Source: Patescibacteria group bacterium (GTDB lineage Bacteria; Patescibacteriota; Patescibacteriia; UBA9570). Taken from it: a DNA stretch of 64,000 bases. The DNA is taken from positions 4,260 to 68,259 of the forward strand of contig JBAYIY010000003.1 of assembly GCA_041665365.1 (NCBI GenBank). Direction: 5' to 3'. Position 1 is the first letter of the stretch. Every line of letters starts with the position of its first letter. Below are positions 427-9,513 of this stretch, piece after piece. A model generated the notes under the pieces. The model searched no databases. It had not been told where the DNA came from and was given only the letters and a program-made list of their open reading frames with translations. The position numbers and the translations under genes were made by a program.

Positions 427-1745
427 ATATAAATGTTGCCATTATTGGGAGTGGTGCCAGAGAACATGCGCTGGCCTGGAAATTAGCGCAACAACCGGAT
501 GTAATATTATTCAATTTTGGTGCAACTGATAATCCTGGTTTGAAACAACTCTGTCAGGCGGTTATGTTAGGTGATGTTAATGATGTCACGGCGGTGCTGA
601 CTTGGTGCCAAGAACAACATGTCACGATAGTTTGGATTGGGCCAGAGGCACCTTTAGCAAGTGGTCTAGTGAATGCTTTAGAGGCGTTTGGGATTGCCTG
701 TATTGGGCCAACCCAAGAATTAGCTCAACTGGAATCATCCAAAGCCTATACCCGGAAGTTATTGGAAAAATATGATATTAACGCTTCACCGGCTTTTAAA
801 GTATTTACCACATTAGATGGTATTAGTGACTACATGTGGTCGTATCATGATAATGTGGTGATTAAACCGGATGGTTTAACTGGCGGTAAGGGTGTGCGGG
901 TGCTGGGGGAGCAACTTAAAACTCGTGAAGAGGCACTACAATATTGTACAGAATTATTTTCAACTGGCAGTGAGCGAGTTGTTATTGAAGAAAAGCTTGT
1001 GGGGCAAGAATTTTCTTTAATGAGTTTTTGTGATGGAAAACATTTAATCCATATGCCGGCTGTGCAAGATCATAAACGAGCGCAGGTAGGCGACTTAGGT
1101 TCAAACACTGGCGGCATGGGGTCTTATACCGATGTTAATCATAGTCTGCCATTTCTTAATGAACATGATATTAAACTTGCCCAGCAGATTAATGAGAAAA
1201 CAATTCAGGCTATTCAAGAAGATTGCGGCGAAGAATATAAAGGAATTCTGTATGGTGGTTTTATGGCCGTACGCGACGGTGTTCGTTTAATCGAATATAA
1301 TGTACGCTTTGGTGACCCTGAAGTGATGAACTTACTGGCGTTGTTAGATACACCGCTCATTGCTATTACCCAAGCCATTGTTAATCGATCGTTAGATCGA
1401 CTGACGGTAAAATTTTTACCATTAGCGTCAGTGTGTAAATATGTTGTACCAGCCGGGTATCCAGAGCATCCGGTTAAGGATCAATTGATTGATGTGTCGC
1501 GAGTTGATACTAAACAAGTGCAGCTGTTTTATGGAGCGGTCAATACTACCACCCAAGGTTTACAGCTGGCTGGTTCACGCGCGATCGGTTTAGTATCTAC
1601 CGGTACTACTTTGGCTGAAGCTGAGATAAAAGTAGAGCAAGAAATTAAAAAAATTACTGGGCCTGTTTTCCATCGAGCGGATATTGGTACAGCCGCTTTA
1701 GTTTCTAGCCGTGTGCAAATGTTAAAAACCATTCGTTATGCTTAA
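423..1745 (+). CDS. purD: phosphoribosylamine--glycine ligase
   Basis: N-terminus MNINVAIIGSGAREHALAWKL and ATP-grasp regions are typical of GAR synthetase; 4-nt overlap with purF. Confidence 0.9.
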   Translation: MNINVAIIGSGAREHALAWKLAQQPDVILFNFGATDNPGLKQLCQAVMLGDVNDVTAVLTWCQEQHVTIVWIGPEAPLASGLVNALEAFGIACIGPTQELAQLESSKAYTRKLLEKYDINASPAFKVFTTLDGISDYMWSYHDNVVIKPDGLTGGKGVRVLGEQLKTREEALQYCTELFSTGSERVVIEEKLVGQEFSLMSFCDGKHLIHMPAVQDHKRAQVGDLGSNTGGMGSYTDVNHSLPFLNEHDIKLAQQINEKTIQAIQEDCGEEYKGILYGGFMAVRDGVRLIEYNVRFGDPEVMNLLALLDTPLIAITQAIVNRSLDRLTVKFLPLASVCKYVVPAGYPEHPVKDQLIDVSRVDTKQVQLFYGAVNTTTQGLQLAGSRAIGLVSTGTTLAEAEIKVEQEIKKITGPVFHRADIGTAALVSSRVQMLKTIRYA

Positions 1746-2280
1746 TATTGCTGTGCTTGGTTCAACCCAAGGCGCCGATCTTCAGGCTTTGCTTGATGCT
1801 AAGGTTAACATTGTGGTGGTGTTATCCAATAAACCGTTAGCCGGTATTTTAGATAAAGCTCGGCAAGCTGGGGTCGAGGCTTTATCGTTTGAGGATAATT
1901 TTGAAGAGCAAGCCTTAGTAGTCTTAAAAAGACGCCAGGTTGATTTGATTTTATTGATTGGTTTCATGAAAATTTTATCACCTAATTTTATAAAACAATT
2001 TGAGCATAAAATATTAAATATTCATCCTTCATTACTACCTAAATATGCCGGTGGTATGAACATGAACATACATGCCGAAGTATTAAAGAATAAAGACGCA
2101 GTCACCGGTTGTACTTTACATTATGTCACAACCGAGGTGGATGCCGGCCCGATCTATGGTCAAGAAGCCGTGCCGGTGCTACCAGATGATACTCCAGAAA
2201 CTCTTAAAGCCCGCGTCCAACAAGCCGAACAGAAATTATTATTACGAGCCATTAATGAATTATCCATCTTACTGGTTTGA
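1738..2280 (+). CDS. purN: phosphoribosylglycinamide formyltransferase
   Basis: Formyl-transferase motifs (NIHPSLLP, ~180 aa) and an 8-nt overlap with purD. Confidence 0.85.
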   Translation: MLNIAVLGSTQGADLQALLDAKVNIVVVLSNKPLAGILDKARQAGVEALSFEDNFEEQALVVLKRRQVDLILLIGFMKILSPNFIKQFEHKILNIHPSLLPKYAGGMNMNIHAEVLKNKDAVTGCTLHYVTTEVDAGPIYGQEAVPVLPDDTPETLKARVQQAEQKLLLRAINELSILLV

Positions 2281-4303
2281 AGCCATACCAGATAAATTAC
2301 ACTTTCCAAAATTGACGGGTGATAAAACTGTTGATGTAGTTGTAGTCGGTGGGGGCATGTCCGGTATATTGACCGCCTATCTTTTAACCAAACAAGGCAA
2401 AACTGTTGTTGTGTTGGAACAAAACCATATTGGTACCGGTGATACAGGATTTACCACGGCTTTTTTGAATCGTATTCCAGATACTGACATAGTAAAATTA
2501 ACCACTAAATATGGTATTAATCGGGTGAGAGATATTTATGAAACCTATAGTGCCGCGCAGAAATTATTATTTAAACTCATTCAAGCTGAACAGATCGACT
2601 GTGATTTTATGTCTGCACCGTCACGGCATTATTCTAATATACCAAACAGTGCCGCTTTGCTCGCTGAATGGAATATTGTTAAACAACTTGATCACCAGGC
2701 GGAATGGAAAGATAATAATATACAATTTAATCAAGAAGGCTCATGGCACATTCGTAAATTCATTTTTGCCTTAGCCAAAAAATTACAAATTTACGAACAG
2801 ACAGTTGTTACTGGTATAAAAGTAAATAAAAAAAACGTACTTGTAAATACTAGTGAGGGGGAAGTTACTGCACAGAAAGTTATTGTCACCACAGGTTTAC
2901 CGGCCACACTGACGGAATGGCATCATTTATTTGAAACTAGATTATCCTATGTGATTGCCTTACAGTATGATAAACCTGTCACCTTGGCGGATGGGCAATT
3001 TTGGGACAGTGCTGAGCCGTATCATTATTATCGCAAGGTAAATGAGCGCACCATCATTTTAGGTGGTGCGGATCGATATGGTTGGCAGCCACAACCGGCG
3101 CAGACTCCATATCAGCAGTTAGAAGATTGGGCAAAACAAAACTTATCAGGAAATTTTACTGTCACGCACCGCTGGTCGGGCAGTTTGTTTGAAACTAGTG
3201 ATGGTTTACCATATATTACGCCGCATCCCTATTATCCAAAACAGGTGTGGTTGGCCTGTGGATTTTCTGGAAATGGTATGGTGGGCAGTGCCGTAGCGGC
3301 GCAGCTAATCAGTCAGGAAATAGTGTCGAAGAACTTTACATTGCAACGTACTAAACAAACATTAGCTCGCCTGACCACTTCAAACCCTATGACACAAGGT
3401 TGGTGGAAATGGCCAACCCGGTTATTGTTATTTTTAATTTATGGTGTTGCCTTAATCACTCCGGCGGTAATATTTTATCAAGATCGCGGTGGCTTTGGTT
3501 GGCAGATAAACATTTTTCCCTTGGTTGGTTTGTACGCCTTTACATTGGTGTGGGCACAAATCGTATTGGGAGCGGGGATGTGGGTATGGCGCCGGGTATT
3601 TACTTGGATTGAACCGTATCATCGTGCCGAGGGTGTGGTGGCTTTATTATTTGCTTTACTTCATCCTATTCTAATTCTTTATAGTTATGGTTTATCCAGC
3701 TATTTAGATCGTATACCGTTTCTGTATTTAGGTTATTTTCAGTTAATATTATTATGTAGCACAGTCGGTACAGCCATTTTGATGAAATGGAAAAGACTAA
3801 AACACATTTGGTTATATATTCATCTAGCGAACTATGTTGTATTTACTTCAGTCTGGATTCACAGTTGGTTTATCGGCAGCGATGTACGCTTTAGTAATTT
3901 GAAATATCTCTGGATGTTTTATGCTATAACCGCGCTGGGGGCGGTGGGGTTACGGTTATATAATTATTTCAAACCAGTGAGTGCTCGGGTTAAAACCAGT
4001 GGCTGGGTGCAGGCGGCTAAAATTTCTGCAGTGCTAATGGGGCAACCATATTTAGCTCGCGTTGGTCAATTACAAGTTGCCATATTCAACATCAAAGGTC
4101 AGTATTATGCCATCGATAATGTTTGTAGTCATGCCGGTGGGCCACTTTGCCAAGGCTCATTGAACGGAACGACCATTCAATGTCCTTGGCATGAATCAAA
4201 GTTTGATGTTGTTACCGGCCATGTTGTTACCGGTCCAGCACGACGCGACCAGCGTCGGTTTGCCACAAAAGTAGTGGGAGATAGTATCTATATTAAGTCT
4301 TAG
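2255..4303 (+). CDS. three-domain fusion: FAD-dependent (DAO-family) oxidoreductase, multi-His transmembrane domain resembling the ferric-reductase/YedZ(MsrQ) family, C-terminal Rieske [2Fe-2S] domain
   Basis: Dinucleotide-binding motif VVVVGGGMSGILTAY..VLEQ; ~6 predicted TM helices with conserved His residues; C-terminal CSHAGGPL..CPWHESKF Rieske box. The start was chosen at ATG 2255 (MNYPSYW) rather than ORF-track 2123, which lies deep inside purN. Confidence 0.6.
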   Translation: MNYPSYWFEAIPDKLHFPKLTGDKTVDVVVVGGGMSGILTAYLLTKQGKTVVVLEQNHIGTGDTGFTTAFLNRIPDTDIVKLTTKYGINRVRDIYETYSAAQKLLFKLIQAEQIDCDFMSAPSRHYSNIPNSAALLAEWNIVKQLDHQAEWKDNNIQFNQEGSWHIRKFIFALAKKLQIYEQTVVTGIKVNKKNVLVNTSEGEVTAQKVIVTTGLPATLTEWHHLFETRLSYVIALQYDKPVTLADGQFWDSAEPYHYYRKVNERTIILGGADRYGWQPQPAQTPYQQLEDWAKQNLSGNFTVTHRWSGSLFETSDGLPYITPHPYYPKQVWLACGFSGNGMVGSAVAAQLISQEIVSKNFTLQRTKQTLARLTTSNPMTQGWWKWPTRLLLFLIYGVALITPAVIFYQDRGGFGWQINIFPLVGLYAFTLVWAQIVLGAGMWVWRRVFTWIEPYHRAEGVVALLFALLHPILILYSYGLSSYLDRIPFLYLGYFQLILLCSTVGTAILMKWKRLKHIWLYIHLANYVVFTSVWIHSWFIGSDVRFSNLKYLWMFYAITALGAVGLRLYNYFKPVSARVKTSGWVQAAKISAVLMGQPYLARVGQLQVAIFNIKGQYYAIDNVCSHAGGPLCQGSLNGTTIQCPWHESKFDVVTGHVVTGPARRDQRRFATKVVGDSIYIKS

Positions 4304-6165
4304 TTCAGCGTACTGAAAGGAACTAATTTAGAATATCTGCCACCCAAATAGGTACCAACAGCGCGCACGTGAACCTTATAGGCAGTGGCGGCGGTGAGGC
4401 CTTTAACGGTGAGTTGGTGTTTGGTTGTGATAACCTGTTTTTTTAGTTTGTTACCATGTTTAATTTGCAACACATAAAGATCGGCTCCGGCAACAGTGCG
4501 CCAACGAATTTGTGCTCCTTTGCTTGTTTCTTTTGAAACTGTCACATGTTTTACTTTGGCTGGAGCAGTCAGAGCAGTACCGCTTGGCGAATAACTAGTC
4601 GTACCAACATCGTTAACATAGACAGCACCAATTAGTTCAGCTTCTTGACCATCCGGATTAATCACATCAACATTTTGAAAACCACCGGATCCACCACTGG
4701 GTAGCAAACCAACTATGGCAGTATCGGTCACGGTTAGATCAATTAATGGTACACCGCCAATGGCTGCGACTGCACCATCCACAAAGCCGGAGCCACTAAT
4801 GGTAATAGTGGTAGCCGTACTATCATCAGCTGTTTCCGGTGACACTGAATAAATAGTTGGAGCTGTATCTGTCGTCACAACTAAGGCATTTGCTACAGTC
4901 GTTTGTTTACCACTGGGTGAAGTAACGCGAATGCCATATGTACCGTTACTTAATGAACTTGGTACAGTGACTTGAATTTCTGTACTGCTCACAACAGCCA
5001 CGGTATCAGCTTCAACAATAGAACGGATGGCAGCACTACTGGATGAACCAGGTATAAACGATACAGTTGAGTTGGCTAAGAAATTATTGCCATATAACCA
5101 AACTAAACCACTTGGTTGCGCAGTGGCTTGGCCGGGTCCACCATAAAAGCTGGCTGTTCCACTGACAGTAGTAGCATCTGGGCAGGTTTGGCCAGCTGGT
5201 AGTTTTACCCAAAGTATATAGTAACCAGCATTCAAGAAGACACCACTGTTAATGCCGGCTGTTCCAGAAGTCACATAATCATCAGACCCAAATGGGGTAA
5301 TGTACCAATCACCAGAACTTTCCACCTGGACTTGTTGAGCACGATATAAATACATTTTAGCCGGTGTCGCTATAGCACCACCACTATCACCACCGCAACT
5401 TTCACTGGCTTGAGCAGTTTGAGAATCGAAAGATGGTTTAACGGAAGCATCATCAGTAATGCGCACATCATCAATCAGCCAGCCGCGAAAACCATTATAT
5501 TTTTCATCCATCGTATCAAAACTGAATTTGAGTTTTATGGTACTACCAACGTACTCCGACAAATCAGCTTGCGTATGAATCCATTGTCCAATTTCACCCA
5601 AACCGCCAGAGCTATATGGTTTAAATGATTCACCATCAACATCATTAATTGGGTTCATACCAACTACTTTAGCCCAAGTGACGCCATCATCGGTCGTAAC
5701 GTAGGTATCCATTAAATCATAACGATCAACATCGACACCTTCTATTTCCCACCAGCTCCAAAAAGTTAAGTCAGCATTAGCAGCTGTTGTTAGATCAATT
5801 GATTGGCTGACTAGTTCTCCAGAATTTGATAGAGCTGACCAGCCACCATTTTTTTCCACTTGATCAGCCAAAGTCCAGTCACCTAAAAATGTGCCATCTG
5901 CACTACTGCCATACCACCAGACATAATCACCCGAATAGGCCGATGGTAAGTAGCCAAAATCAGGCAATGATACCAAAGCTGGGTTAATGTCACTTGAAAT
6001 GGCCACATCATTTGGATTAGCCTGGAGGTGCCATTGGCCAGTACTGGTCCAATTACCCACGCCACTTTCCATATCGTCAAAAAATAATGTCGCGGCACTG
6101 ACTGGTTGTGAGCTTAAGCTAAGAGCCAAGCCACAAATGATACCGAGCAAAAGTCCTTTTTTCAT
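4300..6165 (-). CDS. secreted surface protein with IPT/TIG-like and C-terminal fibronectin type III domains
   Basis: N-terminal signal peptide MKKGLLLGIICGLALSLSSQPVSAA; Ig-like/TIG repeats; C-terminal FN3-like segment (..WRTVAGADLYVLQ..YKVHVRAVG). Confidence 0.55.
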   Translation of the reverse strand: MKKGLLLGIICGLALSLSSQPVSAATLFFDDMESGVGNWTSTGQWHLQANPNDVAISSDINPALVSLPDFGYLPSAYSGDYVWWYGSSADGTFLGDWTLADQVEKNGGWSALSNSGELVSQSIDLTTAANADLTFWSWWEIEGVDVDRYDLMDTYVTTDDGVTWAKVVGMNPINDVDGESFKPYSSGGLGEIGQWIHTQADLSEYVGSTIKLKFSFDTMDEKYNGFRGWLIDDVRITDDASVKPSFDSQTAQASESCGGDSGGAIATPAKMYLYRAQQVQVESSGDWYITPFGSDDYVTSGTAGINSGVFLNAGYYILWVKLPAGQTCPDATTVSGTASFYGGPGQATAQPSGLVWLYGNNFLANSTVSFIPGSSSSAAIRSIVEADTVAVVSSTEIQVTVPSSLSNGTYGIRVTSPSGKQTTVANALVVTTDTAPTIYSVSPETADDSTATTITISGSGFVDGAVAAIGGVPLIDLTVTDTAIVGLLPSGGSGGFQNVDVINPDGQEAELIGAVYVNDVGTTSYSPSGTALTAPAKVKHVTVSKETSKGAQIRWRTVAGADLYVLQIKHGNKLKKQVITTKHQLTVKGLTAATAYKVHVRAVGTYLGGRYSKLVPFSTLN

Positions 6166-6257: not shown

Positions 6258-7760
6258 ATGATTAAACGCGCCTTAGTTAGTGTTTCTGATAAAACTGGCA
6301 TTGAAGAATTGGCTCGTGAATTGATCGAATTAGGAGTAGAAATTGTCTCCACTGGTGGTACCGCGAAACGTCTCGCGGACGCTGGCGTGACTGTGCGCAC
6401 CATTGATGATCTGACCGGCTTTCCAGAAATGATGGATGGCCGCGTAAAAACTCTCCACCCCAATGTGCATGGTGGTATTTTAGCGGTGCGGGATAATCCG
6501 GTGCACATGGCTGCGGCGAAAGAACATCATATTGAAATGATAGATTTGGTAGTAGTGAATCTATATCCATTTGAGTCTAAACCTAGTATTGAAAATATTG
6601 ATATCGGTGGGCCAGCCATGGTGCGGTCAGCGGCGAAGAATTATCACGATGTTATCGTAGTAGTTGACCCATTAGATTATTCTATAGTATTAGATGAACT
6701 CAAACAAAATCAAACTGTGTCTGAACAAACTCGTTACTACTTAATGCAAAAAGCCTTTGCGCATACGGGGTACTATGATTCTATGATTGCTAATTACATG
6801 AATCAAACCCGCGTGTTTACGACCGAACTCAGTTTTGGTTATCGTAAAGTGGCCAATTTACGGTACGGCGAAAATCCACATCAAGCCGCTGCGTATTATG
6901 CCGAACCTTTATTTCATGGCAGCAGTATTGTGCAAGCCGATATTTTACAAGGTAAGCAATTATCCTATAACAACATCATGGATGCTGATGCTGCCTTACG
7001 TTTGATCGTTGAATTTCATCAACCCGCCGCAGCGATTATTAAACACACTAATCCGTGTGGTACGGCAGTAGCTGATAATATTACAACCGCTTTTACTAAA
7101 GCTTATGAAACAGACAGCCTATCGGCTTTTGGTGGGGTCGTGGCTTTAAATCGAACGTGTACGGTGGAGATTGCAGAATTATTGAGTAAAGTTTTTGTGG
7201 AAATAATTCTGGCGCCGGATTTTGAAGACAAAGCCGTTGAGGTGATGAATAAAAAACCCAATGTGCGCTTGTTAAAACTAGGTGCTTTAACTCCACCGGA
7301 CGGAACTTGGGAAACGCGCAAAATATTAGGTGGTGCCTTAGTGCAAGACACCGACACAAAAATTATTACTGAGCATAATTTGTCTTTTGTCACTGATAAT
7401 AAACCTACCAAAGAGCAGGTATCAGATTTATTATTTGCTTGGACAGTATGTAAACATGTTAAATCCAATGCGATTGTTCTAGCACAAAATGGGGTAACCT
7501 TAGGAGTAGGCGCCGGTCAGATGTCTCGGATAGAGGCTGTTAATATTGCTTTACAAAAAGCTGGCGATAAAACCCAAGGAGCCGTGCTGGCGTCGGATGC
7601 CTTTTTCCCCTTTAGAGATTCCGTTGATGCTTTAGCCAAAGCCGGAGTTAGTGCCATTATTCAACCGGGTGGTTCAGTGAAAGATCTTGCCGTGATTGAA
7701 GCAGCTAATGAGCATAATATTGCCATGGTATTTACCGGGCACAGAGCCTTTTTACATTAA
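6258..7760 (+). CDS. purH: bifunctional AICAR transformylase / IMP cyclohydrolase
   Basis: MGS-like N-terminus (VSVSDKTGIEELAREL..GGT) and AICARFT domain; 500 aa. Confidence 0.9.
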   Translation: MIKRALVSVSDKTGIEELARELIELGVEIVSTGGTAKRLADAGVTVRTIDDLTGFPEMMDGRVKTLHPNVHGGILAVRDNPVHMAAAKEHHIEMIDLVVVNLYPFESKPSIENIDIGGPAMVRSAAKNYHDVIVVVDPLDYSIVLDELKQNQTVSEQTRYYLMQKAFAHTGYYDSMIANYMNQTRVFTTELSFGYRKVANLRYGENPHQAAAYYAEPLFHGSSIVQADILQGKQLSYNNIMDADAALRLIVEFHQPAAAIIKHTNPCGTAVADNITTAFTKAYETDSLSAFGGVVALNRTCTVEIAELLSKVFVEIILAPDFEDKAVEVMNKKPNVRLLKLGALTPPDGTWETRKILGGALVQDTDTKIITEHNLSFVTDNKPTKEQVSDLLFAWTVCKHVKSNAIVLAQNGVTLGVGAGQMSRIEAVNIALQKAGDKTQGAVLASDAFFPFRDSVDALAKAGVSAIIQPGGSVKDLAVIEAANEHNIAMVFTGHRAFLH

Positions 7761-7761
7761 T

Positions 7762-9513
7762 ATGTCTCACCAATACATTGCCGTTATCGATTTTGGTTCA
7801 CAATTTGCTCATCTGATTGCGCGCCGGATTCGGCAGCATGGCGTGCTAGCGAAAATATTTACACCCGATACAAATCCTACTGAATACGCTGATGCCAAAG
7901 GTATAATTTTATCCGGTGGGCCCAAGAGTACTATTGCGGAAGATGCTGTGCCATATAATCATCGTTTGTTCGATATTAAGGTACCGATTTTAGGTTTATG
8001 TTACGGACATCAATTAATTGCCCTGCATTTTGGTGGTCAAGTGGCCAAAGGTAAAACCAAAGAGTACGGTCAGGCTGATCTAACAATCACTCAGCCCGAT
8101 GTTATTTTTACCAGTCTATCTAAAAAACAAAGAGTTTGGATGAGCCATTGGGATGTAGTTACCCAAGTTCCGGCTGGTTTTACAGTGATTGGTCGAACAG
8201 CAGATTGCGACATGGCCGCCATGGTTAACCCCACCAAAAAAATCTGGAGTTTTCAATACCATCTGGAAGTGCATCACACCACACATGGTTTAAAAATGTT
8301 GGAGAATTTCTTGTTTAAAATTTGTCAGGTGCGCGCCGATTGGAATATAGCGAAGATTGAACAAGAGATTATTAAAGATATTAAAAAAACTATACCAAAC
8401 CATAAACAAGTCTTTGTGTTGTTATCCGGCGGAGTCGATTCGACTGTAACTTTTGCTTTGTTAGAAAAAGCCTTGGGCAAGAAACGGGTTTATGGTTTAC
8501 ATATCGATAATGGTTTTATGCGCTTAAATGAAAGTAAGCAAGTTCTTTTCGCTTTGAAAAAAGCCGGTTTCGGTAATATGCATATGGTGGATGCCTCAGA
8601 GCGGTTTTTGCAATCTGTGGCTGGTATGACTGATCCAGAAAAAAAACGTCAGGCCATTGGTGAAATGTTTATTGAGATTGCCAATGAAGAAATAAAAAAA
8701 ATGTTGTTGTTGGATAATTATATATTGGGTCAAGGTACAATTTATCCAGATACGATCGAATCTGGTGGTACCAAACACGCTGATAAAATTAAAACTCATC
8801 ATAATCAAATAGATTTGATTAAACAAATGATTAAAGATGGGAAAGTAATTGAACCATTACGCAATCTTTATAAAGATGAAGTGCGCGCGATCGGTAAAAG
8901 ACTGGGCATAGCCACGAGTTTATTACAACGTCAACCTTTTCCCGGGCCTGGTTTAGCGATTCGCACATTATGTTCCGATGGTCAGAATCCGGTAGTCGCT
9001 GCCGGGATTTTGCCAATGAAATCAGTGGGCGTACAGGGTGATGAACGATCCTACAAACATCCCGCCATTATTACTAAACCAAAAACTTGGTCGCAACTCA
9101 ATGAATTATCTGTGCGTTTAACCAATGAAGTGTTTCATATTAATCGTGTGCTTTGGCTGGTAGCAGGTAAAAATATCTCACAAGCCAAAATGCATCCCGC
9201 TTATCTAACTAAAGCTAGATTGGATTTATTAAGACAAGCCGATGACATTGTACAACGAGTCATGCGGCAAGATAAACTCACCAAAGATATTTGGCAATTT
9301 CCCGTAGTACTGGTGCCGTTTGGCAGAAATCAGACCGGTGAAACCATAGTTTTACGACCAATTCAATCACAAGAAGCTATGACGGTAAATTTTTACCCCA
9401 TGCCCAGAGCGAGTTTAAAGAAGATAACCAAACAGTTATTAAAACTTCCAAAGGTTGAGTATGTTTGTTATGATGTCACCAATAAACCACCTGCTACCAT
9501 TGAGTGGGAATAA
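7762..9513 (+). CDS. guaA: GMP synthase (glutamine-hydrolysing)
   Basis: Class I GATase N-terminus (IAVIDFGSQFAHLIARRIR..LGLCYGHQ) and ATP-PPase P-loop (LLSGGVDSTV). The start was moved to ATG 7762 (MSHQYIAV), which abuts the purH stop. Confidence 0.9.
   Translation: MSHQYIAVIDFGSQFAHLIARRIRQHGVLAKIFTPDTNPTEYADAKGIILSGGPKSTIAEDAVPYNHRLFDIKVPILGLCYGHQLIALHFGGQVAKGKTKEYGQADLTITQPDVIFTSLSKKQRVWMSHWDVVTQVPAGFTVIGRTADCDMAAMVNPTKKIWSFQYHLEVHHTTHGLKMLENFLFKICQVRADWNIAKIEQEIIKDIKKTIPNHKQVFVLLSGGVDSTVTFALLEKALGKKRVYGLHIDNGFMRLNESKQVLFALKKAGFGNMHMVDASERFLQSVAGMTDPEKKRQAIGEMFIEIANEEIKKMLLLDNYILGQGTIYPDTIESGGTKHADKIKTHHNQIDLIKQMIKDGKVIEPLRNLYKDEVRAIGKRLGIATSLLQRQPFPGPGLAIRTLCSDGQNPVVAAGILPMKSVGVQGDERSYKHPAIITKPKTWSQLNELSVRLTNEVFHINRVLWLVAGKNISQAKMHPAYLTKARLDLLRQADDIVQRVMRQDKLTKDIWQFPVVLVPFGRNQTGETIVLRPIQSQEAMTVNFYPMPRASLKKITKQLLKLPKVEYVCYDVTNKPPATIEWE

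What the first reader, a model, noticed from the sequence alone, without database searches (positions are those of the whole stretch)
2255..4303. Unusual single-polypeptide electron-transfer architecture: FAD oxidoreductase + heme-type 6-TM domain + Rieske domain
FAD-dependent oxidoreductase fused to a C-terminal Rieske domain is a known arrangement (YhfW-like proteins). Here a ~250-residue polytopic segment with conserved histidines resembling the ferric-reductase/YedZ(MsrQ) heme b domain is inserted between them. The result is a self-contained FAD to heme to [2Fe-2S] chain spanning the membrane. I am not aware of a characterised member with this order. It sits between the purF-D-N and purH-guaA genes.
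Basis: partly seen in the sequence, partly recalled or inferred. Interest (0 to 1): 0.55.

Follow-up and report, generated by a model that had tools for sequence, protein, structure and literature searches.

The report
Flavin–Rieske–dihaem membrane electron-transfer fusion protein
A single gene in a tiny Patescibacteria (CPR) genome fuses an FAD dehydrogenase, a two-haem membrane domain of the NADPH-oxidase/ferric-reductase type and a Rieske iron-sulfur domain. This looks like a self-contained wire carrying electrons from a cytoplasmic substrate to the cell surface, in organisms generally thought to lack respiratory chains.

Summary
Window 2255-4303 (+) is one intact 682-aa gene, identical to NCBI MFA6474947.1. 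It has a DAO-type FAD domain (aa 27-354), a six-helix membrane domain (385-572) and a Rieske [2Fe-2S] domain (584-681).

[quoted passage not shown] Four histidines are invariant in 38/38 full-length homologues, with exactly the NOX2 spacing: H-x13-H in TM3 and H-x12-H in TM5. That implies two stacked b haems.

Six helices and a strong positive-inside bias put both the FAD and Rieske domains in the cytoplasm. The likely path is substrate, FAD, [2Fe-2S], inner haem, outer haem, external acceptor.

Supporting evidence:
- The same membrane subfamily also occurs with an FNR-like NAD(P)H module in the Rieske position (NOX-like), with Rieske alone, and on its own.
- A second, independent fusion has the order DAO-Rieske-YedZ-like FRD.
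- Small cupredoxin lipoprotein genes lie directly next to the gene in three divergent genomes.

The substrate and the terminal acceptor are unknown, and I found no characterised member and no paper on this architecture. I rate it a new variant of a known kind, of moderate interest.

The parts
2255..4303 (+). Whole gene: 682-aa DAO-FRD-Rieske fusion protein (stop codon 4301-4303). The start overlaps the purN 3' end by 26 nt.
   Evidence: ORF list and sequence. Identical to P0001 / MFA6474947.1. Full-length alignment with 37 homologues.
2333..3316 (+). DAO-type FAD-dependent oxidoreductase domain (aa 27-354). Includes the GxGxxG dinucleotide-binding motif G32-G37 (nt 2348-2365).
   Evidence: Pfam PF01266, 131 bits, 7.8e-38. 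Foldseek against sarcosine and glycine oxidases, E about 1e-19. G32, G34 and G37 are invariant.
3407..3970 (+). Six-helix ferric-reductase-domain (FRD) type membrane domain, aa 385-572. TM1 3407-3484, TM2 3515-3598, TM3 3608-3706, TM4 3713-3778, TM5 3791-3892, TM6 3899-3970.
   Evidence: AF2 helices. Pfam PF01794 at 22.6 bits for the window; 31/38 family members match at E<=1e-3 and two checked members are above the gathering score. Positive-inside analysis. Coordinates.
3620..3664 (+). TM3 histidine pair H456 (3620-3622) and H470 (3662-3664), H-x13-H. Predicted axial ligands of the inner and outer haem b.
   Evidence: Invariant 38/38. Same spacing as NOX2 H101/H115 (PMC3591440). Codons checked.
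3821..3862 (+). TM5 histidine pair H523 (3821-3823) and H536 (3860-3862), H-x12-H. Predicted second axial ligands of the inner and outer haem b.
   Evidence: Invariant 38/38. Same spacing as NOX2 H209/H222. Codons checked.
4004..4297 (+). Rieske-type [2Fe-2S] ferredoxin domain (aa 584-681). The cluster-ligand boxes C624-x-H626 ... C643-x-x-H646 lie at nt 4124-4192.
   Evidence: Pfam PF00355, 65.8 bits. Best solved relatives are dioxygenase Rieske ferredoxins, e.g. 2qpz at 4e-15. Ligands invariant 38/38. The second box is CPWH, not CPCH, so there is no bc1-type disulfide.
1738..2280 (+). purN, the upstream neighbour. It overlaps the fusion gene start, so the two are probably co-transcribed.
   Evidence: NCBIfam TIGR00639, above cutoff. 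No promoter or terminator signal above chance.
4300..6165 (-). Convergent neighbour: a 621-aa secreted protein (InhA-like MAM, TIG, fn3). Not part of the system; a lineage-specific insertion between the fusion gene and purH.
   Evidence: Pfam. No tblastn match in the syntenic loci L005-L008.

Best explanation
The gene encodes a membrane flavo-iron-sulfur-cytochrome b that works like a NOX/ferric-reductase enzyme with a different donor module.

**Proposed mechanism**
1. A cytoplasmic DAO-family domain oxidises a small substrate at its FAD. The substrate is probably of amine or amino-acid type; its identity is unknown.
2. Electrons pass one at a time to the low-potential Rieske-type [2Fe-2S] domain. 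This domain is also cytoplasmic and follows TM6, where NOX enzymes carry their FNR-like dehydrogenase module.
3. From there electrons go to the inner haem b (H456/H523), then across the membrane to the outer haem b (H470/H536).
4. Finally they reach an extracytoplasmic one-electron acceptor. In some relatives this is probably a cupredoxin lipoprotein. In the window's organism the acceptor is unidentified; a copper protein encoded elsewhere, O2 or Fe(III) are all possible.

**Shown:** domain identities, invariant cofactor ligands, six-helix N-in/C-in topology, modular relatives and gene neighbourhoods.

**Inferred:** cofactor occupancy, the order and direction of electron flow, the substrate and the acceptor.
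For: - **Domains and ligands.**
- **Histidine spacing.** H-x13-H in TM3 and H-x12-H in TM5 are invariant in 38/38 and identical to NOX2 H101/115/209/222.
- **FRD membership.** Thirty-one of 38 members hit Pfam Ferric_reduct at E<=1e-3. P0005 (31.7 bits) and P0013 (29.3 bits) exceed the 28-bit gathering score.
- **Topology.** There are six helices, and K+R counts are 13.8 inside versus 3.7 outside.
- **Modularity of the same membrane subfamily.** P0132 is TM + FAD_binding_6 + NAD_binding_1, i.e. NOX-like, and matches the TM profile at 6e-72. There are also TM-Rieske proteins of about 330 aa, and many stand-alone forms.
- **TM-Rieske neighbour.** One TM-Rieske gene is followed by a Pyr_redox_2 flavoprotein gene, the class that reduces Rieske ferredoxins.
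- **Independent second fusion.** DAO-Rieske-YedZ-like FRD proteins have 7 TM helices. One carries an extra C-terminal DM13 domain predicted to lie outside.
- **Cupredoxin neighbours.** Lipoprotein cupredoxin genes sit immediately beside the fusion gene in L019 (10 nt upstream), L020 (72 nt downstream) and L017 (divergent). One lies 4.5 kb away in L002. Others lie beside stand-alone FRD genes in L033 and L051. None was found in any locus retrieved only through its Rieske match, apart from L061.
- **Rieske type.** The domain is the ferredoxin type, which in dioxygenase systems carries electrons from a flavoprotein to the next acceptor (established knowledge).
Against: - There is no biochemical evidence for any member.
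- The window's own Pfam Ferric_reduct score is below the gathering threshold (22.6 < 28).
- A profile of the membrane domain finds nothing among PDB sequences. Foldseek of the membrane model gives only weak matches to STEAP1, Dcytb and STEAP2 (E 0.4-0.9, TM about 0.5).
- The relative placement of the three domains is uncertain (pTM 0.64), and cofactor distances could not be measured.
- No partner gene is universally conserved, and no cupredoxin is present in the 64-kb window.
- From general knowledge, CPR bacteria usually lack haem biosynthesis, so haem would have to be scavenged.
- The window protein lacks about 16 residues in two outer loops that all homologues retain.
Confidence: 0.6

Rival explanations
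1. One reading: electrons follow the domain order FAD, haem, [2Fe-2S], with the Rieske domain on the far (outer) side of the membrane as the terminal centre.
For: The domain order in the polypeptide. Membrane-anchored Rieske domains exported by Tat do exist in other systems (PMC5449189).
Against: - An even number (6) of TM helices returns the chain to the starting side.
- Positive-inside bias is 13.8 versus 3.7.
- There is no twin-arginine motif before TM6; the loop consensus is GSDVxxxxLRYLW.
- P0132 carries a cytoplasmic NAD(P)H-binding module at the same position.
- Type B proteins keep DAO and Rieske adjacent, before the membrane domain.
Confidence: 0.05
2. Inward electron flow: an external donor such as a reduced cupredoxin or Fe(II) feeds the haems, then the Rieske centre, then FAD, which reduces a cytoplasmic substrate. 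This would be electron uptake rather than disposal.
For: The architecture is symmetric with respect to direction. Cupredoxin genes are neighbours in some genomes.
Against: - From general knowledge, cupredoxins have high potentials (about +200 to +400 mV). Rieske ferredoxins of the dioxygenase type and flavins are much lower, so inward flow would be steeply uphill.
- DAO-family enzymes are substrate dehydrogenases or oxidases.
- All characterised FRD proteins (NOX, FRE, STEAP, MsrQ) carry electrons outward (PMC3591440).
Confidence: 0.1
3. A true NOX analogue whose outer haem reduces O2 directly to superoxide, for signalling, attack on the host or O2 scavenging. No protein partner would be needed.
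For: The four-histidine NOX-like motif. The membrane domain is closest to a NOX-like FRD-FNR protein. Most loci, including the window, have no adjacent acceptor gene. Oxidative-stress genes (SelR, a peroxiredoxin-like redoxin) lie near related genes.
Against: CPR bacteria are generally regarded as anaerobic fermenters (PMC5220378 abstract). Cupredoxin adjacency in several genomes points to a protein acceptor. NOX O2-site residues could not be tested.
Confidence: 0.15
4. The hydrophobic segment is only a membrane anchor or linker without haem. The protein would then be a membrane-tethered YhfW-like DAO-Rieske enzyme.
For: The window's Ferric_reduct score is below Pfam's threshold. There is no PDB sequence hit. 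From general knowledge, haem biosynthesis is usually absent in CPR.
Against: - About 25 invariant positions lie in the membrane domain, including four histidines at exact NOX spacing and register.
- Thirty-one of 38 members hit PF01794.
- The domain exists as a conserved stand-alone family and in a NOX-like fusion.
- A preprint reports PF01794 in 1427 of 7645 CPR genomes, next to cytochrome b5-like haem proteins (10.1101/2021.11.17.468889).
Confidence: 0.05
5. Assembly or frameshift artefact joining two or three separate genes.
For: None found.
Against: It is one uninterrupted ORF. Thirty-seven independent full-length homologues from many assemblies share the same order. About 18 species representatives carry it.
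Confidence: 0.01

Closest known systems
NOX / FRE flavocytochromes, including bacterial 'long-form' FRD proteins (csNOX5, SpNOX)
   Same: Six-TM FRD core with H-x13-H (TM3) and H-x12-H (TM5), implying two stacked b haems. N- and C-termini are cytoplasmic. A cytoplasmic redox module follows TM6 and feeds the inner haem. Electron flow is outward.
   Different: The FNR-like FAD/NAD(P)H dehydrogenase module that defines NOX and FRE is absent. A Rieske [2Fe-2S] domain occupies its place, and the flavin sits in an unrelated DAO-fold domain at the N-terminus. The donor is therefore presumably an organic substrate rather than NAD(P)H.
MsrQ (YedZ) with the cytosolic flavin reductase Fre or quinol, and periplasmic MsrP
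   Same: An FRD-superfamily membrane cytochrome b that relays cytoplasmic or membrane electrons to an extracytoplasmic partner protein. The type B relatives (DAO-Rieske-FRD) have a YedZ-like domain: Arg replaces the inner TM3 histidine and three histidines remain.
   Different: The window's domain has all four histidines. It is fused to its donor, and no MsrP-like molybdoenzyme is nearby.
STEAP2-4 metalloreductases
   Same: An N-terminal cytoplasmic dehydrogenase domain is fused in front of an FRD membrane domain. STEAP1 and STEAP2 are the top, though weak, structural matches of the membrane model.
   Different: STEAP uses an F420-oxidoreductase-like NADPH domain, a membrane-embedded FAD and a single haem. 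It has no iron-sulfur domain.
YhfW-like soluble DAO-Rieske fusion proteins (about 510 aa; widespread; function unknown)
   Same: Homologous DAO and Rieske domains, about 30-37% identical, in the same N-to-C order. The membrane domain is an insertion exactly in their interdomain linker.
   Different: YhfW-like proteins have no membrane domain. B. subtilis YhfW is described only as a predicted oxidoreductase of unknown function (PMC7317962).
Three-component Rieske dioxygenase electron-transfer chains (flavoprotein reductase, Rieske ferredoxin, terminal acceptor)
   Same: The Rieske domain is most similar to these low-potential ferredoxins (2qpz, 5bok, CarAc). The logic flavin to [2Fe-2S] to next acceptor is the same.
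   Different: The acceptor here is a membrane dihaem domain, not an oxygenase. The flavoprotein has a DAO fold and is not an NADH-dependent reductase.
Proteus L-amino acid deaminase (membrane-bound DAO-fold flavoenzyme)
   Same: A DAO-fold dehydrogenase among the structural matches (5i39, 5hxw). From general knowledge, it hands electrons to a membrane cytochrome b rather than to O2.
   Different: It is a separate protein that uses the host respiratory chain. It has no Rieske or FRD domain.

Membership tests
Ferric reductase domain (FRD) superfamily, Pfam PF01794 | Six transmembrane helices with cytoplasmic N- and C-termini | tested here: met
   AF2 models show six helices. The positive-inside count is 13.8 versus 3.7.
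Ferric reductase domain (FRD) superfamily, Pfam PF01794 | Haem-ligand histidines in TM3 and TM5 with NOX2 spacing (H101/H115, H209/H222) | tested here: met
   H456-x13-H470 and H523-x12-H536 are invariant in 38/38. The reference spacing is from PMC3591440.
Ferric reductase domain (FRD) superfamily, Pfam PF01794 | Profile HMM score above Pfam's gathering threshold (28 bits) | tested here: inconclusive
   The window protein scores 22.6 bits (E 1.1e-4), below the cutoff. Homologues P0005 (31.7) and P0013 (29.3) are above it. Thirty-one of 38 members match at E<=1e-3.
Ferric reductase domain (FRD) superfamily, Pfam PF01794 | Binds b-type haem | not testable with these tools
   Needs spectroscopy of expressed protein.
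NOX / FRE enzymes proper | C-terminal FNR-like dehydrogenase module with FAD- and NAD(P)H-binding motifs | tested here: not met
   There are no FAD_binding_6/8 or NAD_binding_1/6 hits; a Rieske domain follows TM6. The paralogous P0132 does have this module.
YedZ / MsrQ family | Three conserved histidines, with Arg replacing the inner TM3 histidine | tested here: not met
   The window family has His at that position (H456, 38/38). Type B relatives show the YedZ pattern RRxLG.
DAO family FAD-dependent oxidoreductases, Pfam PF01266 | N-terminal GxGxxG FAD-binding fold and a full-length HMM match above threshold | tested here: met
   131 bits against a cutoff of 27.9, profile positions 1-352 of 353. 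G32, G34 and G37 are invariant. Foldseek E is about 1e-19 to sarcosine and glycine oxidases.
DAO family: glycine oxidase (ThiO) subtype | Equivalog-level score and the carboxylate-binding Arg in the C-terminal H-[FY]-R-N-G motif (motif recalled from memory) | tested here: not met
   TIGR02352 scores 51.7 bits against a cutoff of 250.8. The corresponding motif here is GFSGNG, with no Arg (read from the sequence).
Rieske [2Fe-2S] ferredoxin-type domain, Pfam PF00355 | CxH...CxxH cluster ligands and an HMM score above threshold | tested here: met
   C624, H626, C643 and H646 are invariant. The score is 65.8 bits against a cutoff of 20.3. The nearest solved relatives are dioxygenase ferredoxins.
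High-potential bc1/b6f-type Rieske proteins | Disulfide-forming cysteines in both ligand boxes (CxHxGC ... CxCH) | tested here: not met
   The boxes read CSHAGG and CPWH (sequence). The bc1 and b6f Rieske subunits are only weak matches.
Dual Sec/Tat-inserted membrane Rieske proteins | Twin-arginine motif before the last TM helix and an extracytoplasmic Rieske domain | tested here: not met
   The TM5-TM6 loop is GSDVRFSNL (family consensus GSDVxxxxLRYLW) with no RR. It has a mean K+R of 0.58.
YhfW-like DAO-Rieske fusion family | Homologous DAO domain followed by a homologous Rieske domain in one chain | tested here: met
   Hundreds of proteins of about 510 aa align to both ends at 29-37% identity and 50-56% coverage. 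The membrane domain aligns as an insertion in their linker.

The most novel reading that the evidence does not exclude
These proteins would be a quinone-independent, single-polypeptide transmembrane electron-transport chain specific to ultra-small CPR bacteria (and possibly DPANN-like archaea). Oxidation of a cytoplasmic amine or amino-acid substrate would be wired through FAD, a Rieske cluster and two b haems to an extracellular copper protein or oxidant. That would give otherwise fermentative cells a respiratory-like electron sink. By the Rosetta-stone argument, it would also reveal that the widespread orphan YhfW-type DAO-Rieske enzymes deliver electrons to membrane cytochromes b.
Probability: 0.35. 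Interest if true: 0.7.

Novelty: new variant of a known kind. Interest (0 to 1): 0.5.

Why it matters
- **CPR physiology.** CPR/Patescibacteria are generally described as lacking respiratory capacity (PMC5220378). A conserved, self-contained flavin/iron-sulfur/dihaem chain that ends at the cell surface would give them a way to dispose of electrons, or to reduce an external metal, O2 or a copper protein, without quinones. That would change how their energy and redox metabolism is modelled.
- **FRD modularity.** It extends the known modularity of the NOX/FRD superfamily. A Rieske centre plus a DAO-fold flavoenzyme replaces the FNR-like NADPH module.
- **Orphan family.** Two independent fusion orders give a concrete, testable hypothesis for the orphan YhfW-like DAO-Rieske family, which includes B. 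subtilis YhfW: its physiological acceptor may be a membrane cytochrome b.

Tried and rejected
- **Foldseek on the membrane model.** It gave only weak matches to STEAP1, Dcytb and STEAP2 (E 0.4-0.9). These are consistent with an FRD fold but not decisive.
- **Membrane-domain profile against PDB sequences.** No hit at E<=10.
- **hhalign of the type A and type B membrane domains.** The result was weak (E 0.003, probability 9.9%). I used it only for register: the type B Arg falls opposite H456.
- **Search for a universally conserved neighbour.** None was found. The pur synteny is kept only in the four closest loci, L005-L008. I therefore rejected a functional link to purine synthesis.
- **L024.** It first looked like a TM-Rieske gene but is a type A gene cut by the contig end.
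- **L041 and other Chloroflexia matches.** These are broken or two-domain genes, not type A.
- **Export signals.** I looked for Tat and signal-peptide features and found none.
- **Promoter and terminator scan around the gene.** Nothing above chance.
- **Literature searches for the architecture.** No paper was found. Figure 3 of Zhang et al. 2013 lists an FRD model with 'FMN' and 'Rieske' (M4) that I could not inspect further.
- **Substrate assignment.** NCBIfam matches are all far below their cutoffs.
- **Cofactor distances.** Model coordinates are not exposed, so these could not be measured.
Full report
**What is there**

Window 2255-4303 (+) lies inside an ORF that runs 2123-4303. The ATG at 2255 gives a 682-aa protein. 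That start matches the start of 37 full-length homologues and overlaps the stop of purN (2278-2280) by 26 nt. The protein is identical to NCBI MFA6474947.1, annotated only as 'FAD-dependent oxidoreductase [Patescibacteria group bacterium]', on a 180-kb contig.

Pfam finds three domains:
- DAO at aa 27-354 (131 bits).
- Ferric_reduct at 425-531 (22.6 bits, E 1.1e-4, below the 28-bit gathering score).
- Rieske at 584-667 (65.8 bits).

An AlphaFold2 model built on 38 sequences has mean pLDDT 87 and pTM 0.64. It shows six long helices between residues 385 and 572, flanked by two disordered linkers. A model of the membrane domain alone has pLDDT 89 and pTM 0.83.

**The membrane domain is a two-haem ferric-reductase domain**

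In 38 full-length homologues (35-66% identical), about 25 positions of the membrane domain are invariant. They include H456 and H470 in TM3 and H523 and H536 in TM5. The spacings, 13 and 12 intervening residues, are exactly those of NOX2 H101/H115 and H209/H222. In NOX2 the first histidine of each pair binds the cytoplasm-proximal haem and the second binds the surface-proximal haem (Zhang et al. 2013, PMC3591440).

Other evidence on the domain:
- Thirty-one of 38 members hit PF01794 at E<=1e-3, and two checked members exceed the gathering score.
- The window protein scores lower, probably because it lacks about 16 residues in the TM1-2 and TM3-4 loops that every homologue has.
- According to Zhang et al., four histidines are typical of NOX-like 'long forms', whereas YedZ/MsrQ keeps three and has Arg at the inner TM3 position. 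The window's domain is of the four-histidine type.

**Topology and wiring**

Six helices return the chain to its starting side. Across the 38 sequences, K+R totals 13.8 in the pre-TM1, TM2-3, TM4-5 and post-TM6 segments. It totals 3.7 in the TM1-2, TM3-4 and TM5-6 loops, although those loops are longer. There is no signal peptide, and no twin-arginine motif precedes TM6.

The DAO and Rieske domains are therefore both cytoplasmic, and H456/H523 form the inner haem site. The membrane domain is a clean insertion into the linker of a DAO-Rieske protein. That would leave the FAD-to-[2Fe-2S] pairing of the soluble family intact and place the haems downstream.

The Rieske domain is of the low-potential ferredoxin type:
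- Its boxes read CSHAGG ... CPWH, with no bc1-type disulfide.
- Its best solved relatives are the naphthalene, carbazole, toluene and biphenyl dioxygenase ferredoxins.
- In those systems this ferredoxin type carries electrons from a flavoprotein to the next acceptor (established knowledge).

**Relatives show a modular system**

A profile of the membrane domain was searched against 1.84 billion representative proteins. It finds 1375 proteins at E<=1e-3 and 76 at E<=1e-30. The strongest matches fall into four architectures:
- DAO-TM-Rieske, about 720-750 aa, about 15 representatives.
- TM-Rieske, about 330 aa.
- TM + FAD_binding_6 + NAD_binding_1 (P0132, 451 aa, E 6e-72). This is the classical bacterial NOX-like 'long form'.
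- Many stand-alone domains of about 215-235 aa.

The Rieske domain thus sits exactly where a NOX-like paralogue carries its cytoplasmic NAD(P)H dehydrogenase. One TM-Rieske gene is followed by a Pyr_redox_2 flavoprotein gene, the class that reduces Rieske ferredoxins.

A second fusion, type B, has the order DAO-Rieske-FRD. Its membrane domain is YedZ-like (RRxLG, three histidines), passes Pfam's threshold (36-41 bits) and has a seventh helix. In P0043 that helix is followed by a DM13 'electron transfer' domain predicted to lie outside. Type B occurs in Peribacteria (L022, L025) and in a Micrarchaeota-labelled MAG.

Two different fusion orders with two different FRD branches are a Rosetta-stone argument. 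They suggest that DAO-Rieske modules exchange electrons with FRD-type cytochromes b.

**Gene neighbourhood**

The window gene lies in the order purF-purD-purN-[gene]-(convergent secreted-protein gene)-purH-guaA. This synteny is kept only in the four closest loci (L005-L008, 51-54% identical proteins) and is absent from the more distant ones. I treat it as lineage history, not function.

Clustering of flanking ORFs from 20 loci found no universal partner, but one recurrent family: small lipoprotein cupredoxins. Their positions are:
- L019: 10 nt upstream of the fusion gene, same strand.
- L020: 72 nt downstream, same strand.
- L017: divergently adjacent.
- L002: a CuA-like cupredoxin 4.5 kb away.
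- L033 and L051: directly upstream of stand-alone FRD genes.
- L061: directly upstream of another fusion protein carrying this Rieske subtype.
- L086 and L029: 1-2 kb from two-domain DAO-Rieske genes.

Apart from L061, none of the loci retrieved only through their Rieske match, which come from other phyla, contains a cupredoxin gene. No cupredoxin is present in the 64-kb window.

MsrB (SelR) genes lie within 1 kb of type B genes in L084 and L085, and near two-domain genes in L086 and L029. A peroxiredoxin-like redoxin gene is in L086.

**Mechanism proposed**

A cytoplasmic substrate is oxidised at the DAO-domain FAD. Single electrons then pass to the Rieske cluster, to the inner haem (H456/H523), to the outer haem (H470/H536), and to an external acceptor.

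Where a cupredoxin is encoded next door, it is the obvious candidate acceptor. Its expected high potential also makes the outward direction thermodynamically natural (established knowledge). For the window's organism the acceptor is open: a copper protein encoded elsewhere, O2 as in NOX, or Fe(III) as in FRE.

The substrate is unknown:
- All NCBIfam equivalog scores are far below their cutoffs.
- The glycine-oxidase carboxylate-binding Arg motif is not conserved.
- Structural neighbours are sarcosine, glycine and N-methyltryptophan oxidases, proline dehydrogenase and L-amino-acid deaminase.

I put 0.6 on this overall mechanism. Confidence in the architecture, the ligands and the sidedness is higher, about 0.85.

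**Comparison with what is known, and novelty**

FRD domains fused to electron carriers are known in outline. Zhang et al. list Fer2, Rieske, DOMON and other add-ons. Hajjar et al. 2017 (PMC5676040) cite von Rozycki et al. 2004 on YedZ fusions. A preprint reports PF01794 in 1427 of 7645 CPR genomes.

I found no description or characterisation of the DAO-FRD-Rieske architecture. YhfW, the model two-domain relative, is still 'of unknown function'. The family is small: 38 clusters at 90% identity and about 18 of 185,579 species representatives. These are mostly Kerfeldbacteria and Andersenbacteria, plus MAGs with doubtful labels.

It is not a NOX, because the FNR module is absent. It is not an MsrQ, because it has four histidines. 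It works most like a NOX/FRE with a swapped donor module. Verdict: a new variant of a known kind, interest about 0.5.

Noticed in passing
L019 3190-3615(+), L020 8223-8597(+), L017 ~5511-5810(-), L002 3014-3508(-): Small lipoprotein cupredoxins lie directly beside the DAO-FRD-Rieske gene in three divergent genomes (Pfam Copper-bind/Cupredoxin_1, H...C-x2-H-x2-M). A CuA-like cupredoxin (C-x3-C-x3-H-x2-M) lies 4.5 kb away in a fourth. They are candidate external electron acceptors. None is in the 64-kb window.
   Followed up: yes
L033 5284-5802, L051 876-1310, L061 4588-4956, L034 10228-10713, L086 8408-9418, L029 8737-9783: Cupredoxin genes also sit immediately upstream of stand-alone FRD membrane genes (L033, L051). 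One sits 7 nt upstream of a 446-aa protein that joins an unrelated N-terminal domain to the same Rieske subtype (L061). Others lie 1-2 kb from two-domain DAO-Rieske genes (L086, L029).
   Followed up: partly
P0042, P0043, P0049, P0052, P0054, P0056, P0057; L022, L025, L084, L085: A second architecture, DAO-Rieske-FRD, has a YedZ/MsrQ-like membrane domain (Arg instead of the inner TM3 His, three His) and a seventh helix. P0043 adds a C-terminal DM13 'electron transfer' domain predicted to be extracellular. It is found in Peribacteria and in a Micrarchaeota-labelled MAG.
   Followed up: yes
L085 5301-5693, L084 5747-6133, L086 3239-3643, L029 4152-4616: MsrB (SelR, methionine-R-sulfoxide reductase) genes lie within about 1 kb of type B fusion genes and near two-domain DAO-Rieske genes. 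L086 also has a pirin and a peroxiredoxin/thioredoxin-like gene. This hints at a link to oxidative stress. No SelR gene was found near type A genes.
   Followed up: partly
P0132 (451 aa); P0121, P0125, P0136, P0161; L003 3112-3435: The same membrane-domain subfamily occurs fused to an FNR-like FAD/NAD(P)H module (NOX-like) and to a Rieske domain alone. One TM-Rieske gene is followed by a Pyr_redox_2 flavoprotein gene, which is cut by the contig end.
   Followed up: partly
window 3485-3514 and 3700-3715 (loops TM1-2 and TM3-4): The window protein lacks about 16 residues in two predicted outer loops that all 37 homologues keep (membrane segment 185 aa versus 200-205). This probably explains its sub-threshold Pfam score. 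The functional consequence is unknown.
   Followed up: partly
L021 6010-7248 (= P0124, 412 aa): A Kerfeldbacteria genome carries a version in which only the last ~40 residues of the DAO domain remain in front of the TM-Rieske part. This looks like an N-terminal truncation of a type A gene.
   Followed up: no
L007, L008 (also L009, L010, L012, L019): MAGs titled 'uncultured Gammaproteobacteria bacterium' share the purF-purD-purN-[fusion]-purH-guaA synteny with the window and with a Kerfeldbacteria MAG (L005), at 66-86% protein identity. The taxonomic labels are probably wrong and these are likely Patescibacteria. L017 is labelled 'uncultured archaeon'; its domain was not checked.
   Followed up: partly
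window 4300-6165 (-): A 621-aa secreted protein (signal peptide, InhA-like MAM, IPT/TIG and fn3 domains) is convergent with the fusion gene and overlaps it by 4 nt. It has no counterpart at this position in the syntenic loci L005-L008, so it appears to be a lineage-specific insertion into the pur cluster.
   Followed up: partly
window 7696-9513 (+): The guaA ORF as listed starts at a TTG inside purH. The NCBIfam match begins at residue 28, so the real start is probably about 80 nt further downstream.
   Followed up: no
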